A DNA stretch of 64,000 nucleotides, taken from assembly GCF_044324785.1 (NCBI RefSeq), contig NZ_CP172127.1; one strand, written 5' to 3'. A program made the translations under genes and the position numbers. This stretch comes from Escherichia coli (GTDB lineage Bacteria > Pseudomonadota > Gammaproteobacteria > Enterobacterales > Enterobacteriaceae). The notes beneath the pieces were generated by a model. It was given only the letters and a program-made list of their open reading frames with translations, was not told the origin of the DNA and did no database searches. This document shows positions 3,629 through 61,896 of this stretch, piece by piece (the stretch's first letter is position 1; each line of letters opens with the position of its first letter).

Positions 3629-3928
3629 ATGGCGCTTACAAAAGCTGAAATGTCAGAATATCTGTTTGATAAGCTTGGGCTTAGCAAGCGGGATGCCAAA
3701 GAACTGGTTGAACTGTTTTTCGAAGAGATCCGTCGCGCTCTGGAAAACGGCGAACAGGTGAAACTCTCTGGTTTTGGTAACTTCGATCTGCGTGATAAGA
3801 ATCAACGCCCGGGACGTAACCCGAAAACGGGCGAGGATATTCCCATTACAGCACGGCGCGTGGTGACCTTCAGACCCGGGCAGAAGTTAAAAAGCCGGGT
3901 CGAAAACGCTTCGCCCAAAGACGAGTAA
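3629..3928 (+). CDS. ihfA: integration host factor alpha subunit
   Basis: 99-aa [60 protein letters not shown]; HU/IHF fold signature. Confidence 0.95.
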
Positions 3929-3945
3929 TCTGATCTAACTAAAAA

Positions 3946-3966
3946 GGCCGCTCTGCGGCCTTTTTT
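3946..3966 (+). terminator. rho-independent terminator after ihfA (GGCCGC-tct-GCGGCC then TTTTTT)
   Basis: perfect 6-bp GC stem followed by a T6 run, seen in sequence. Confidence 0.75.
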
Positions 3967-4028
3967 CTTTTCACTGTCGAAGAGTCACCGTAAAATCAAC
4001 GCCATGACACTTCAGCAGAACGGATACC

Positions 4029-28569: not shown

Positions 28570-28706
28570 CGTGTAATGGCTGCATGAAATAAACAATAAA
28601 ATATAAATAACATTATCAGCCTGCTGACGGCTTGAAGAGAGTCACAGTATCTTGTGCAACATTATTGGAAAGCGTGAGGGGCGAGGTAGCGAAGCGGAAA
28701 AATGTT

Positions 28707-28812
28707 AAAAAAAAGCCCATCGTGGGAGATGGGCAAAGACTACACACAGCAATTCGTTGTTTCACTCAGGGGATTTCCATGCTTATAAATCAATATGTTG
28801 ATTTATAACCGT
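28707..28812 (-). ncRNA. rprA: RprA small regulatory RNA (Hfq-dependent, activates rpoS translation)
   Basis: minus-strand sequence ACGGTTATAAATCAACATATTGATTTATAAGCATGGAAATCCCCTGAGTGAAACAACGAATTGCTGTGTGTAGTCTTTGCCCATCTCCCACGATGGGCTTTTTTT recognised as RprA, including the terminal hairpin plus U-run; lies between ydiL and ydiK. Confidence 0.85.
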
Positions 28813-34250: not shown

Positions 34251-34439
34251 TCCTGACTTAATGCCGCAAGTTCGCCATATCGACCTGGATTAATCTCCGT
34301 CCAGGTTCGATGGCCTTCTTAATACTGCTTATCTACCCGCCTGATATTGTTCAAAAATAATACTAATCGCAGTTTGTGTTAAAACGGCGGGTTAGCTTTA
34401 TGAGATTATTCTTATCGCCCCTTCAAGAGCTAAGCCACT

Positions 34440-34515
34440 GAGAGTGCCGGAGATAAGCGCCGGATGGGGTAGAAACCCTTAAGCCTGTGTCGCACAGACT
34501 TAAGGGTTTTCTTAT
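34440..34515 (+). ncRNA. rydB: candidate small RNA ending at an intrinsic terminator (possibly RydB, reported between ydiH and sufA)
   Basis: strong hairpin CCCTTAAG-loop-CTTAAGGG followed by TTTTC about 225 bp after ydiH and about 290 bp before sufA; 5' end not determinable from sequence; RydB identity is from memory of its map position, not sequence recall. Confidence 0.3.
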
Positions 34516-52054: not shown

Positions 52055-52145
52055 TGTTACTTACCTGTACGCATTCTTTCGAATTTAGTGTTATCAGATA
52101 AGTTTGGCTGAAATTTTTAGAATTTGAGAAATATCAGACAGGGAT

Positions 52146-52170
52146 GAAAAGGGCGCTAACCGCCCTTGGT
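52146..52170 (-). terminator. ydhR intrinsic terminator (GGGCG-gttag-CGCCC then TTTTCAT on the minus strand)
   Basis: hairpin plus T-run immediately after the ydhR stop. Confidence 0.6.
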
Positions 52171-52179
52171 TAAAATCTG

Positions 52180-52485
52180 TCAGGCGAGTTTTGCCTGATT
52201 GATTTGACTCAGTGGCTCATTGACATCGAAAACTTTGGCGACAACTTCCTCAACGCCGAGATTTTTCAGTCGGGCAGTATGTTTTTCCAGATAGGCTAGG
52301 GCGCTTTTTTCATCAGTGAAAAGGTAGATCCCACCGGCTTCGTGGTTCTTTTCACTTTCTGTCCATACCTTCCACAGAAAACCAGGTTCCTGATTAATCG
52401 ACTCAGCAAGCGGTTTAAGCTGCTCAGCCATTGCGTCGCCAAATGGGCCATTAAAAGCAAAATGAAGTTGTAACAAAGTTGCCAT
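52180..52485 (-). CDS. ydhR: putative monooxygenase/dimeric alpha-beta barrel protein
   Basis: 101-aa ORF. Confidence 0.82.
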
Positions 52486-52592
52486 AGCGATTCTCCTTCT
52501 GATAACGCATACGAAGACAGTGTAAATCTTTTAACGTATTGGATACAGAGAAGAAACAGAGGGAAAAACGAGAAGACCAGATTAAGAAAATC

Positions 52593-52669
52593 TGGTGCGT
52601 CCGAGTGGACTCGAACCACCGACCCCCACCATGTCAAGGTGGTGCTCTAACCAACTGAGCTACGGACGC
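52593..52669 (-). tRNA. valW: tRNA-Val (anticodon GAC), distal copy of a tandem pair
   Basis: minus-strand GCGTCCGTAGCTCAGTTGGTTAGAGCACCACCTTGACATGGTGGGGGTCGGTGGTTCGAGTCCACTCGGACGCACCA: cloverleaf, GAC anticodon, encoded CCA; valV/valW naming is by position and could be swapped. Confidence 0.9.
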
Positions 52670-52673
52670 AGGA

Positions 52674-52750
52674 TGGTGCGTTCAATTGGACTCGAACCAA
52701 CGACCCCCACCATGTCAAGGTGGTGCTCTAACCAACTGAGCTATGAACGC
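52674..52750 (-). tRNA. valV: tRNA-Val (anticodon GAC), proximal copy of a tandem pair
   Basis: minus-strand GCGTTCATAGCTCAGTTGGTTAGAGCACCACCTTGACATGGTGGGGGTCGTTGGTTCGAGTCCAATTGAACGCACCA; differs from its neighbour by compensatory changes in the acceptor and T stems. Confidence 0.9.
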
Positions 52751-53058
52751 AACGTTGTAGGTGACAACGGGGACGAATATTAGCGGCAGAGTGGGAAGGT
52801 GGCAAGAGGCAAAACGTATTTTTCTGCGGTATTTCGACCGTTTGCAGAGCTTTTAAGCAAATTGGCTATATTTTGTTGATTTGCAAGGGCGATTTTTATT
52901 CAGGATCGCATTTACATCAGATACAACCCAATAATCCGTGTATCAGAGTTTAAACAGAGTTGTTTGCCACCATCTCAAAATCTGTCGTGGATAAATCCTC
53001 CGTAGCCTTTACACTTAGGTAGCAATAAAGGCACACAGATGCAGCAAAGGAATAAATC

Positions 53059-54315
53059 ATGGGATCTGATGCGAAAAACTTGATGAGCGACGGGAACGTG
53101 CAAATTGTTAAGACCGGCGAGGTCATTGGCGCGACGCAACTTACTGAAGGTGAGTTAATTGTTGAAGCTGGCGCAAGAGCCGAAAATACCGTGGTCACGG
53201 GGGCCGGTTGGTTGAAAGTGGCAACTGGTGGGATCGCCAAATGCACACAGTATGGCAACAATGGCACGCTATCGGTCAGTGACGGTGCCATTGCCACAGA
53301 TATTGTTCAGTCAGAGGGAGGCGCAATTAGTCTCTCTACGCTCGCTACGGTTAATGGCCGCCATCCCGAAGGTGAATTTAGCGTTGATCAGGGTTATGCC
53401 TGCGGTTTGTTGCTGGAAAATGGCGGTAACCTGCGTGTACTGGAAGGCCATCGCGCGGAAAAAATTATTCTCGATCAAGAGGGTGGCCTGTTGGTCAATG
53501 GGACAACCTCAGCGGTCGTGGTAGATGAAGGTGGTGAATTGTTGGTGTATCCAGGTGGGGAAGCCAGCAATTGTGAGATTAATCAGGGCGGCGTTTTTAT
53601 GCTGGCGGGGAAAGCCAATGATACGTTGCTTGCTGGTGGCACCATGAATAATCTCGGTGGTGAAGACTCTGACACTATTGTTGAGAATGGAGCCATCTAT
53701 CGTCTGGGTACGGATGGTCTTCAGCTCTACAGTTCCGGTAAGACGCAAAACTTGTCCGTTAATGTAGGTGGTCGGGCTGAAGTGCATGCTGGTACGCTGG
53801 AAAACGCGGTAATACAAGGTGGGACAGTGATCTTGTTGTCACCCACCAGCGCGGACGAAAATTTTGTCGTAGAGGAAGATCGCGCACCGGTTGAACTGAC
53901 CGGTAGTGTTGCATTACTGGACGGCGCTTCAATGATTATTGGCTATGGCGCAGATCTGCAACAATCAACGATTACTGTACAGCAGGGCGGTGTGTTGATT
54001 CTCGACGGCAGTACGGTAAAAGGTGACAGTGTCACTTTCAGTGTTGGTAACATCAATCTCAATGGCGGAAAACTGTGGCTGATCACTGATGCGGCAACGC
54101 AGGTGCATCTGAAAGTGAAACGCCTGCGTGGAGAGGGAGCCATTTGCCTGCAAACCAGTGCGAAAGAAATTTCATCTGACTTCATCAATGTGAAAGGGGA
54201 AGTTACCGGTGATATACACGTTGAGATAACAGATGCCAGTCGGCAAACTCTGTGTAACGCACTGAAACTACAGCCAGACGAAGACGGGATTGGCGCAACG
54301 CTCCAGCCTGCGTAA
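53059..54315 (+). CDS. ydhQ: autotransporter-passenger-like (AIDA/pertactin-type beta-helix) protein with no recognisable beta-barrel domain
   Basis: 418-aa ORF rich in G/N/T/V with repetitive GG...V segments; no obvious N-terminal signal peptide. Confidence 0.8.
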   Translation: MGSDAKNLMSDGNVQIVKTGEVIGATQLTEGELIVEAGARAENTVVTGAGWLKVATGGIAKCTQYGNNGTLSVSDGAIATDIVQSEGGAISLSTLATVNGRHPEGEFSVDQGYACGLLLENGGNLRVLEGHRAEKIILDQEGGLLVNGTTSAVVVDEGGELLVYPGGEASNCEINQGGVFMLAGKANDTLLAGGTMNNLGGEDSDTIVENGAIYRLGTDGLQLYSSGKTQNLSVNVGGRAEVHAGTLENAVIQGGTVILLSPTSADENFVVEEDRAPVELTGSVALLDGASMIIGYGADLQQSTITVQQGGVLILDGSTVKGDSVTFSVGNINLNGGKLWLITDAATQVHLKVKRLRGEGAICLQTSAKEISSDFINVKGEVTGDIHVEITDASRQTLCNALKLQPDEDGIGATLQPA

Positions 54316-61343: not shown

Positions 61344-61387
61344 TCCATTTCACTCCAGACCCTAACTTCAGCTCCTGCAAAATCGCA

Positions 61388-61403
61388 AGGTAAACGTTTG
61401 CCT
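61388..61403 (-). promoter_or_regulatory. PUR-box-like operator in the purR leader (AGGCAAACGTTTACCT on the minus strand)
   Basis: AAACGTTT-centred palindrome about 45-60 nt upstream of the purR ATG; purR is autoregulated through operators in its leader. Confidence 0.55.
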
Positions 61404-61641
61404 TTACACACCTTACGCACAACAAAAGTGTTGCGGTACGCCGGAAAAACGACACGGAGCGTCAGGAAGGGGTCAATGGCCAGTACGCAAATAGTGTAAG
61501 CGTGGAATTTTGGCCGATCTTGACGAAAAGGGGAAGTGGTAAAAACACTTATCATTATAAATGACGGGAGATTTTTTCATCACAGTGTGTAAAAATGCGT
61601 AATATCACTTTTTGTGTGGTAATAAAAAAGGAGAAAACTTG

Positions 61642-61731
61642 ATGAGCACCGACCTTAAATTTTCACTGGTAACAACGATTATCGTCCTCGGTTTGATCGT
61701 GGCCGTGGGTTTGACAGCCGCGCTGCACTGA
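61642..61731 (+). CDS. ynhF: 29-aa single-TM small membrane protein
   Basis: ATG AGC ACC GAC ... CTG CAC TGA gives MSTDLKFSLVTTIIVLGLIVAVGLTAALH; GGAG Shine-Dalgarno 8 nt upstream; not in the ORF track because it is under 60 aa. Confidence 0.7.
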   Translation: MSTDLKFSLVTTIIVLGLIVAVGLTAALH

Positions 61732-61896
61732 TTTCCTCTCGAGGGAGCGCGTTCTCCCTCGCATCTCCTTCCTGTTTGTTAGCAAAATGGCAAAAGTGTT
61801 TTCTCTTTTTGTTATTTTCATTTTTTTGTGATTGCTGTCATGCTTTCGCCACTTTAATGAATATCGCGTAATGACGCGAAGAGGTGGAGATAAGGC

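What the first reader, a model, noticed from the sequence alone, without database searches (positions are those of the whole stretch)
52593..52750. Tandem tRNA-Val(GAC) pair with compensatory stem differences
Two 77-nt tRNA-Val genes are separated by 4 bp. They differ at acceptor-stem positions (GCGTCCGT versus GCGTTCAT with the matching 3' complements) and in the T-stem (GGTGG versus GTTGG) while keeping base pairing, so this is a duplicated pair maintained as isoacceptor variants rather than a recent identical duplication. This is a known feature of E. coli.
Basis: seen in the sequence. Interest (0 to 1): 0.2.

Follow-up and report, generated by a model that had tools for sequence, protein, structure and literature searches.

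The report
E. coli valV-valW valine tRNA pair
This is the well-known E. coli valV-valW operon: two neighbouring valine tRNA genes with the same anticodon that differ only by three matched base-pair swaps, so the finding is correct but ordinary.

Summary
ARAGORN and Rfam call two 77-nt tRNA-Val(GAC) genes at 52750..52674 and 52669..52593, 4 nt apart (TCCT).

Their six differences are exactly three compensatory base-pair swaps: acceptor 5:68 U-A/C-G, acceptor 7:66 A-U/G-C, and T-stem 50:64 U-A/G-C.

The locus matches E. coli K-12 valV-valW (b1665/b1666) base for base, including promoter, leader and spacer. It is present in 5425 of 5426 complete E. coli genomes.

A species scan shows the two sequences are old and conserved. 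Exactly V then exactly W occur in 51 loci across about 20 Enterobacteriaceae genera, while spacers and flanks diverge. So "maintained variants, not a recent duplicate" holds; "isodecoders" is the more precise term than "isoacceptors".

Published work covers transcription and processing: start sites 18-19 nt upstream, and separation of the two tRNAs by RNase P alone.

One side observation goes beyond the literature I read. A hairpin pairs valW's 3' ACCA with its trailer and is kept by covariation in related genera, although the downstream region was described as unstructured and Rho-dependent.

Verdict: already known, low interest.

The parts
52800..52805 (-). -35 hexamer TTGCCA of the valV-valW promoter
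   Evidence: The consensus scan finds TTGCCA-17-TAATAT, 9/12 matches. The sequence is identical to K-12. TTGNNN at this spacing is present in 51/51 V-then-W loci of other genera.
52777..52782 (-). -10 hexamer TAATAT
   Evidence: Found by the scan. TAATAT is invariant in 51/51 related loci, and 45 of them have TCGTCCCC next to it. It lies 7-8 nt upstream of the published start sites.
52751..52776 (-). G+C-rich discriminator (TCGTCCCC) and 5' leader. The published transcription starts (two C residues, 18 and 19 nt upstream of mature valV) map to about 52769-52770.
   Evidence: The sequence comes and is identical to K-12. Primer extension is reported in PMC2190699. Placing the starts on window coordinates is my inference.
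52674..52750 (-). valV: tRNA-Val(GAC), acceptor GCGUUCA/UGAACGC, T-stem GUUGG/CCAAU
   Evidence: ARAGORN. Rfam tRNA 70.1 bits. Identical to K-12 b1665.
52670..52673 (-). 4-nt intergenic spacer UCCU. It has no RNase E site and is released by RNase P cleavage at valW +1.
   Evidence: Sequence. The spacer and the RNase P dependence are described in PMC2190699 and PMC4176162.
52593..52669 (-). valW: tRNA-Val(GAC), acceptor GCGUCCG/CGGACGC, T-stem GGUGG/CCACU
   Evidence: ARAGORN. Rfam tRNA 69.6 bits. Identical to K-12 b1666. It was the commonest Val(GAC) sequence in the species scan, present in 89 loci.
52576..52596 (-). 8-bp hairpin ACCAGAUU-UUCUU-AAUCUGGU. Its 5' arm begins with the 3'-terminal ACCA of valW. 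It may act as a terminator and/or a 3'-end gating structure.
   Evidence: Terminator-like hit in the scan. MFE -9.4 kcal/mol, z = -4.4, 0/200 shuffles as stable. Equivalent hairpins of -14 to -18.5 kcal/mol, GCACCA...UGGUGC, occur in most of the 33 loci that pair the tRNA 3' end; Escherichia, Erwinia psidii and E. mallotivora have weaker or other versions. Both-sided changes are seen at trailer positions +1, +2 and +4.
52559..52575 (-). Pyrimidine-rich tail CUUCUCGUUUUUCCCUC with a U5 run at 52568..52564. This is the likely region of the primary 3' end.
   Evidence: Sequence. A precursor about 35 nt longer than the trimmed dicistronic RNA was seen in pnp rnb mutants (PMC2190699). The link between that 3' end and this tract is my inference.

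Best explanation
The feature is the valV-valW operon of E. coli. It holds two tandem genes for tRNA-Val(GAC), the 'Val2' isotype known biochemically as Val2A and Val2B. It lies between ydhQ (divergent) and ydhR (downstream, same strand).

Expression and processing: a sigma-70 promoter (TTGCCA-17-TAATAT) followed by a G+C-rich discriminator starts a dicistronic transcript 18-19 nt upstream of valV. RNase P alone separates the two tRNAs by cutting at each mature 5' end, because the 4-nt UCCU spacer offers no RNase E site. The valV 3' trailer and the valW downstream tail are removed by 3'->5' exonucleases: PNPase and RNase II for the tail, then the RNase T/PH group. Both tRNAs are charged by ValRS and read GUC and GUU.

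Origin of the differences: the two genes are an ancient duplicate. They differ only by three double (compensatory) base-pair substitutions, at 5:68, 7:66 and 50:64. All three leave the helices and the known valine identity nucleotides intact. Both versions have been held unchanged across the Enterobacteriaceae.

Basis of each step: gene identity, cloverleaves, compensation and conservation are shown here. Start sites and nuclease dependence are shown in the literature. Growth-rate/stringent control by the discriminator, decoding range, and the reason both variants persist are inferred.
For: - Two tRNA-Val(GAC) calls with Rfam scores of 69.6 and 70.1 bits.
- The six differences equal three both-sided pair changes, with 100% pairing kept.
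- In the 421 aligned window bases, four flanking positions differ from K-12. The stretch from the -35 hexamer to just past the hairpin is identical, including valV b1665 and valW b1666.
- The locus is present in 5425/5426 complete E. coli genomes, at >=99% identity in 5414, and is annotated tRNA-Val x2 next to ydhR.
- The promoter is found by scan and conserved in 51/51 related loci.
- Start sites, the UCCU spacer, RNase P dependence, RNase E independence and PNPase/RNase II removal of the tail are reported in PMC2190699, PMC4176162 and PMC7049720.
- Val2A and Val2B are distinct species sharing an anticodon, and both carry acp3U47. U47 is present in both genes.
- Exact V and exact W occur in about 20 genera with diverged spacers and flanks.
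- Across 25 distinct Val(GAC) sequences the cloverleaf is 99.8% paired, and 11 pairs show both-sided changes.
Against: Nothing argues against the identification. Four caveats apply.

It is therefore a biased sample. The invariance of the D and anticodon arms is partly by construction.
- No expression data for this particular strain were available.
- Which gene encodes Val2A and which Val2B was not verified here.
- The mode of termination is unsettled. The authors inferred Rho-dependent termination because they saw no structure, whereas a conserved hairpin overlapping the CCA end exists.
Confidence: 0.97

Rival explanations
1. The pair stays different passively rather than because the cell needs two distinct tRNAs. 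Once compensatory swaps sit at both ends of the gene (positions 5/7 against 67/69), any partial gene-conversion tract creates mismatched stems and is removed by selection. The two versions are then locked apart while being functionally interchangeable.
For: All differences are in paired positions far apart in the primary sequence. None touches the anticodon, the discriminator or other nucleotides known (from my memory) as ValRS identity elements. One natural isolate (CEC96047) appears to have lost valV next to an IS3 element and keeps only valW. Intermediate forms exist in other genera, for example Kluyvera GCGTTCG with GTTGG.
Against: Other Enterobacterales families show derived stem states shared by all copies of an array. 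Examples are Serratia oryzae and Serratia sp. Ag1 (both copies GATGG), Edwardsiella and Providencia (all copies GGTAG) and Proteus (both copies GCGTCCA). So homogenisation or turnover of whole copies does occur in such arrays. Even so, V and W remain distinct in the great majority of the Enterobacteriaceae arrays sampled; exceptions include Cedecea sulfonylureivorans and Lelliottia sp. V86_10, which carry W twice.
Confidence: 0.55
2. The two isodecoders are functionally non-equivalent, and both are kept by selection. Possible differences are EF-Tu affinity via the 50:64 T-stem pair, thermal or nuclease stability (the acceptor and T stems of valW are G-C richer), or processing kinetics.
For: Both 77-nt sequences are invariant across about 20 genera while the neighbouring DNA diverges. 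Erwiniaceae also keep a W-type copy flanked by a different variant. The predicted stabilities differ: -27.6 kcal/mol for valV against -31.4 kcal/mol for valW. From memory, T-stem pairs 49:65-51:63 are reported to tune EF-Tu affinity.
Against: No experiment read here distinguishes valV from valW function. The published work pools them as 'Val2'. Invariance of each sequence is expected from stem constraints alone. The Serratia and Rahnella arrays sampled carry only identical copies.
Confidence: 0.25
3. One of the two copies is a decaying or recently duplicated redundant gene, and the differences are drift.
For: The copies are tandem, 92% identical and share an anticodon. A single copy appears to suffice in one isolate.
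Against: Drift would not place six of six changes in three pairs with pairing preserved. Both genes score as full tRNAs. Both are conserved base for base across genera. Two species are resolved biochemically.
Confidence: 0.02

Closest known systems
E. coli K-12 valV (b1665) - valW (b1666), the tRNA-Val(GAC) 'Val2' operon
   Same: Identical sequence from the -35 hexamer through both tRNAs, the UCCU spacer and the hairpin. Same neighbours, ydhQ and ydhR.
   Different: Only four single-base differences in the flanks over the 421 aligned window bases. One is in the tail after the hairpin: G at window 52569 where K-12 has C.
tRNA-Val(UAC) 'Val1' genes of E. coli (valT, valU, valX, valY, valZ)
   Same: Same amino acid. 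They also sit in polycistronic tRNA operons with very short spacers whose separation depends on RNase P.
   Different: Different anticodon and body sequence. They are embedded with lysine tRNAs and have clear Rho-independent terminators that RNase P removes first. None is in this window.
Other E. coli same-anticodon tRNA pairs resolved as separate species (Thr1/Thr3, Tyr1/Tyr2)
   Same: Pairs of tRNAs with one anticodon but different bodies, listed together with Val2A/Val2B in PMC7568582.
   Different: They are different amino acids and loci, and I did not examine their sequences here.
Tandem Val(GAC) arrays of other Enterobacterales
   Same: The W-type gene is shared (89 loci). The arrays are tandem with short spacers.
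   Different: Serratia and Rahnella carry two or three identical W copies. Erwinia and Pantoea carry a different variant (GCGTTCT or GCGCTCT with GGAGG or GATGG) around W. Klebsiella, Kluyvera, Pluralibacter and Trabulsiella insert a third gene (GCGTTTA) between V and W.

Membership tests
Bacterial elongator tRNA (Rfam RF00005) | Cloverleaf with 7-bp acceptor, 4-bp D, 5-bp anticodon and 5-bp T stems | tested here: met
   All 21 pairs are standard pairs in both genes. Full-length model matches 1-71/71 at 69.6 and 70.1 bits.
Bacterial elongator tRNA (Rfam RF00005) | Conserved tertiary nucleotides (U8, A14, G18-G19, T-loop UUCGA) and an encoded 3' CCA | tested here: met
   T8, A14, G18, G19, T55-T56-C57-G58-A59 and C75-C76-A77 (linear numbering) are invariant in both genes and across 25 related sequences.
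tRNA-Val, isotype 2 (anticodon GAC) | Anticodon GAC in a 7-nt loop | tested here: met
   ARAGORN reports anticodon gac at position 35 in both genes. The loop is UUGACAU.
tRNA-Val, isotype 2 (anticodon GAC) | ValRS identity nucleotides A35, C36 and discriminator A73 (list recalled from memory) and actual charging with valine | not testable with these tools
   A35, C36 and A73 (linear 36, 37, 74) are present in both sequences. Aminoacylation of Val2 from valV and valW was measured by others (Table 3 of PMC4176162), not in this strain.
E. coli valV-valW operon | Position between ydhQ and ydhR, 4-nt UCCU spacer, sequence identity to b1665/b1666 | tested here: met
E. coli valV-valW operon | Dicistronic transcription from the mapped start sites and RNase P-only separation | not testable with these tools
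   The promoter and leader sequence are identical to K-12. The experiments are in PMC2190699.
Intrinsic (Rho-independent) terminator, considered for 52596..52559 | Stable G+C-rich stem-loop | tested here: inconclusive
   The stem has 8 bp but only 3 G-C pairs, at -9.4 kcal/mol. Orthologous hairpins in Citrobacter, Enterobacter and Klebsiella are 10-13 bp at -14 to -18.5 kcal/mol.
Intrinsic (Rho-independent) terminator, considered for 52596..52559 | U-tract directly after the stem | tested here: inconclusive
   E. coli has CUUCUCGUUUUU, with the U5 run 8 nt after the stem. It passes the loose scan. The scan found 2 terminator-like sites in the region against 1.3 +/- 1.4 expected in shuffles. 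Pseudescherichia and several Citrobacter have UUUU(U) directly after the stem, whereas the Enterobacter cloacae group has AAAUUU.
Intrinsic (Rho-independent) terminator, considered for 52596..52559 | Termination independent of Rho in vivo or in vitro | not testable with these tools
   The authors inferred Rho dependence from an apparent lack of structure, not from a Rho experiment.

The most novel reading that the evidence does not exclude
valV and valW are not redundant. The three compensatory swaps, in particular the 50:64 T-stem pair and the G-C richer acceptor stem of valW, would give the two isodecoders different properties such as EF-Tu affinity, stability or processing order. Selection for having both would then explain why the exact pair has resisted homogenisation across the Enterobacteriaceae, while tandem Val(GAC) arrays in Serratia, Providencia, Edwardsiella and Proteus evolve in concert.
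Probability: 0.2. Interest if true: 0.4.

Novelty: already known. Interest (0 to 1): 0.1.

Why it matters
As it stands, this confirms a textbook locus and adds nothing new about E. coli.

The comparative result has some modest value. It shows cleanly how tRNA stems evolve by double substitutions. It also shows that a tandem isodecoder pair can stay distinct for the lifetime of a bacterial family.

The conserved hairpin that sequesters valW's 3' ACCA could refine the published processing model for this operon. It bears on the mode of termination, and on why trailer-containing precursors resist RNase P, which recognises the free RCCA end (from my memory). This would interest a narrow group of RNA-processing specialists.

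Tried and rejected
- Chance or artefact: rejected by the ARAGORN and Rfam scores and by the pairing statistics.
- Pseudogene or drifting copy: rejected by the cross-genus identity of both genes.
- Weak Rfam hits overlapping the genes were dismissed as tRNA-shape or antisense-tRNA look-alikes. These were Plastid-ycf2 on the + strand at 32.5 and 29.9 bits (gathering 65.7) and YrlA at 28.1 bits (gathering 69).
- The Rfam HPnc0260 hit on the + strand (52469..52631, 112.4 bits) was examined.
  - The 3' third of its model is the reverse complement of the valW acceptor and T arm.
  - Scores fall with distance from Escherichia: 103.5 in E. albertii; 61-68 in Enterobacter, Salmonella, Kosakonia and Klebsiella; none in Serratia or Aeromonas.
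  - No + strand promoter-like site was found in 52100..53200.
  - I therefore treat it as a database label for 'antisense of valW plus spacer', not as evidence of an antisense RNA.
  - The four papers that mention the name only list it.
- ViennaRNA MFE folding of the single tRNAs reproduces the acceptor, D and anticodon arms but misfolds the T arm. The cloverleaf was therefore tested by explicit pair counting instead.
- I looked for published precedent for a terminator stem that includes the CCA end. I found none in the proline tRNA paper or the 2007/2008 Kushner papers. This was not an exhaustive search.
- I did not verify which gene is Val2A and which is Val2B.

Full report
**Observation**

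ARAGORN reports only two tRNA genes in the whole 64-kb window. Both are tRNA-Val with anticodon GAC, at 52593-52669 and 52674-52750, and both are on the minus strand. Rfam's tRNA model matches both end to end at 69.6 and 70.1 bits against a gathering score of 29.

Read on the coding strand, the upstream gene (52750..52674) begins GCGTTCAT and has T-stem GTTGG. The downstream gene (52669..52593) begins GCGTCCGT and has T-stem GGTGG. The spacer is TCCT.

The two 77-mers differ at six positions: 5, 7, 51, 65, 67 and 69. Counting pairs on the explicit cloverleaf shows that these are three pairs changed on both sides, with every pair still standard:
- 5:69 is U-A in one copy and C-G in the other.
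- 7:67 is A-U in one copy and G-C in the other.
- 51:65 is U-A in one copy and G-C in the other.

In standard tRNA numbering these are 5:68, 7:66 and 50:64. The shift comes from one extra D-loop nucleotide. Six randomly placed differences would fall on three of the 21 pairs with probability about 5.6e-6.

**Identity**

Of the 421 window bases aligned to E. coli K-12 MG1655, four positions differ. None of them lies in the promoter hexamers, leader, tRNAs, spacer or hairpin.

In K-12 these genes are annotated valV (b1665) and valW (b1666), both tRNA-Val(GAC). They lie between ydhQ (divergent) and ydhR (downstream, same strand).

The locus is present in 5425 of 5426 complete E. coli genomes. A 198-nt core is at least 99% identical in 5414 of them.

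**Mechanism**

A sigma-70-type promoter, TTGCCA-17-TAATAT, sits at 52805..52777 on the minus strand. It is followed by the G+C-rich TCGTCCCC.

Mohanty and Kushner mapped two transcription starts at C residues 18 and 19 nt upstream of mature valV. This places them 7-8 nt after the TAATAT, at about window 52769-52770 by my mapping.

The same authors reported the following:
- The UCCU spacer lacks an RNase E site.
- RNase P alone separates the two tRNAs by cutting at each mature 5' end.
- RNase E inactivation has no effect.
- PNPase and RNase II remove the downstream tail.
- A precursor about 35 nt longer than the trimmed dicistronic RNA appears only when both exonucleases are inactivated.

Later papers confirm the RNase P dependence and measure aminoacylation of 'Val2/valV, W'.

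Val2A and Val2B are separable species with the same anticodon. Both carry acp3U47, and U47 is present in both genes here.

Growth-rate or stringent control through the discriminator, and decoding of GUC/GUU, are inferences from general knowledge and were not tested.

**Age of the pair**

I scanned one genome per species for two copies of the 25-nt Val(GAC) anticodon-arm core spaced 50-80 nt apart. The sample is biased by the pattern and is not exhaustive.

Within it, the exact 77-nt valV sequence followed by the exact 77-nt valW sequence occurs in 51 loci, counting K-12 and the window. They span about 20 Enterobacteriaceae genera, among them Escherichia, Citrobacter, Enterobacter, Lelliottia, Klebsiella, Kosakonia, Cedecea, Phytobacter, Mangrovibacter, Siccibacter, Shimwellia, Silvania, Superficieibacter, Pluralibacter and Trabulsiella.

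In the same loci the neighbouring DNA has diverged:
- There are 31 distinct V-to-W intervals. The true spacers are 3-17 nt; five intervals of 83-90 nt contain a third tRNA gene.
- The 40 nt downstream have a median ungapped identity of 0.33.
- The promoter core is kept in 51/51 loci: TTGNNN, TAATAT, and mostly TCGTCCCC.

The W-type is the commonest sequence overall (89 loci) and extends to Serratia, Rahnella, Erwinia and Pantoea. The V-type turned up almost only in Enterobacteriaceae loci, the rest being unclassified metagenome bins. The duplication and the three swaps therefore predate the radiation of that family, and both versions are under strong purifying selection.

Across 25 distinct Val(GAC) sequences the cloverleaf is 99.8% paired. 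Eleven pairs show both-sided changes, far above the shuffled and slid controls. The D and anticodon arms are invariant there partly because the search pattern required it.

**Why both versions persist**

This question is not settled.

Arrays in other families show derived stem states shared by all copies. Examples are GATGG in both copies in Serratia oryzae and Serratia sp. Ag1, GGTAG in all copies in Edwardsiella and Providencia, and GCGTCCA in both copies in Proteus. Whole-copy homogenisation or turnover therefore happens. That makes the stable V/W difference notable.

There is also a passive explanation. The swapped pairs sit at opposite ends of the gene, so partial conversion tracts would create mismatched stems and be purged. 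One isolate (CEC96047) has an IS3 element abutting valW and appears to lack valV, so valV may be individually dispensable.

I rate the passive lock as somewhat more likely than functional specialisation. Nothing I read distinguishes the two tRNAs functionally.

**Side observation**

The terminator scan flags an 8-bp hairpin, ACCAGAUU-UUCUU-AAUCUGGU (52596..52576). Its 5' arm starts with the 3'-terminal ACCA of valW. It folds at -9.4 kcal/mol with z = -4.4, and none of 200 shuffles is as stable.

In 33 loci the last tRNA of the array is followed by a hairpin pairing at least four of its last six nucleotides. These include most Citrobacter loci, the Enterobacter cloacae group, Lelliottia, Klebsiella, Kluyvera, Trabulsiella and Pseudescherichia. 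The usual form is GCACCA...UGGUGC at -14 to -18.5 kcal/mol. The inner stem differs between genera but stays paired: GAUU/AAUC, UUUCAG/CUGAAA, AAUCA/UGAUU, UAUC/GAUA. RNAalifold finds both-sided changes at three of the ten consensus pairs.

The 2007 paper states that the downstream sequence has no predicted secondary structure and infers Rho-dependent termination. The hairpin is easy to miss if only the sequence after the CCA is folded.

Its role is uncertain. The U-run follows the stem directly in some genera but not in E. coli or Enterobacter. So it could be a weak intrinsic terminator, a block to exonucleases, or a structure that hides the CCA end from RNase P until the trailer is removed. 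This last idea fits the authors' remark that trailer-containing transcripts resist RNase P, but it is my inference.

**Other database matches**

Rfam HPnc0260 matches the + strand at 52469..52631 with 112.4 bits.
- The 3' part of the model is the reverse complement of the valW acceptor and T arm.
- Scores in other genera fall with distance from Escherichia and vanish in Serratia and Aeromonas.
- No + strand promoter-like site was found nearby.

I read this as a family definition that captures the antisense of this locus, not as evidence for an antisense RNA.

**Verdict**

The finding is real, correctly interpreted and already known. Interest is low. The comparative conservation and the CCA-pairing hairpin are minor additions.

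Noticed in passing
window 52576..52596 (- strand); also L002, L006, L019, L027, L030, L076, L077, L088, L110, L120 and others: A hairpin whose 5' arm is the 3'-terminal ACCA (GCACCA in other genera) of valW is conserved with compensatory changes in 33 loci. The published description calls the region downstream of valW unstructured and Rho-dependent.
   Followed up: partly
window 52469..52631 (+ strand): Rfam RF02194 'HPnc0260 antisense RNA' matches at 112.4 bits, antisense to the valW 3' half, the valW-ydhR spacer and the first codons of ydhR. Scores in other genera decline with distance from Escherichia, and no + strand promoter-like site was found. It is probably a model built around this locus rather than evidence of a transcript.
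   Followed up: partly
L122 (E. coli CEC96047, NZ_AP026104.1 1548685-1549390): An IS3-family transposase gene abuts valW, and only ...CACCA-TCCT remains of valV. This is the one genome in which the 198-nt core matched as a single tRNA-Val. A different genome, 1 of 5426, gave no match at all.
   Followed up: partly
L022, L030, L044, L066, L071, L076, L077, L088: Klebsiella, Kluyvera, Pluralibacter, Trabulsiella and Pseudocitrobacter carry a third Val(GAC) gene (acceptor GCGTTTA/TAAACGC), in all but Pseudocitrobacter lying between the V-type and W-type genes. Kluyvera and Pseudocitrobacter also have a V/W intermediate (GCGTTCG with GTTGG).
   Followed up: no
L013, L016, L018, L026, L031, L038, L074, L075 and other Erwiniaceae loci; L010, L028, L093, L094, L099 (Serratia, Rahnella): Erwinia, Pantoea and Mixta have three-gene arrays of the form variant-W-variant. 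Serratia and Rahnella have two or three identical W copies. Edwardsiella, Providencia and Proteus share derived stem states among all copies, which suggests concerted evolution.
   Followed up: partly
L055 (Cedecea neteri), L079 (Enterobacter sp. Cy-643): An extra exact copy of the V-type gene lies 3.0-4.1 kb downstream of the V-W pair.
   Followed up: no
window 61344..61734 (+), 28705..28812 (-), 34417..34477 (+), 3870..4028 (+): Rfam gathering-level hits to the enterobacterial sRNAs STnc550, RprA, rydB and STnc540. STnc550 also appears in the Klebsiella, Salmonella and Kosakonia loci fetched.
   Followed up: no
window 52569 (- strand G; K-12 has C), plus three positions upstream of the promoter: There are four single-base differences from K-12 in the 421 aligned window bases around the operon. 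One falls in the pyrimidine-rich tail just before the U5 run.
   Followed up: no
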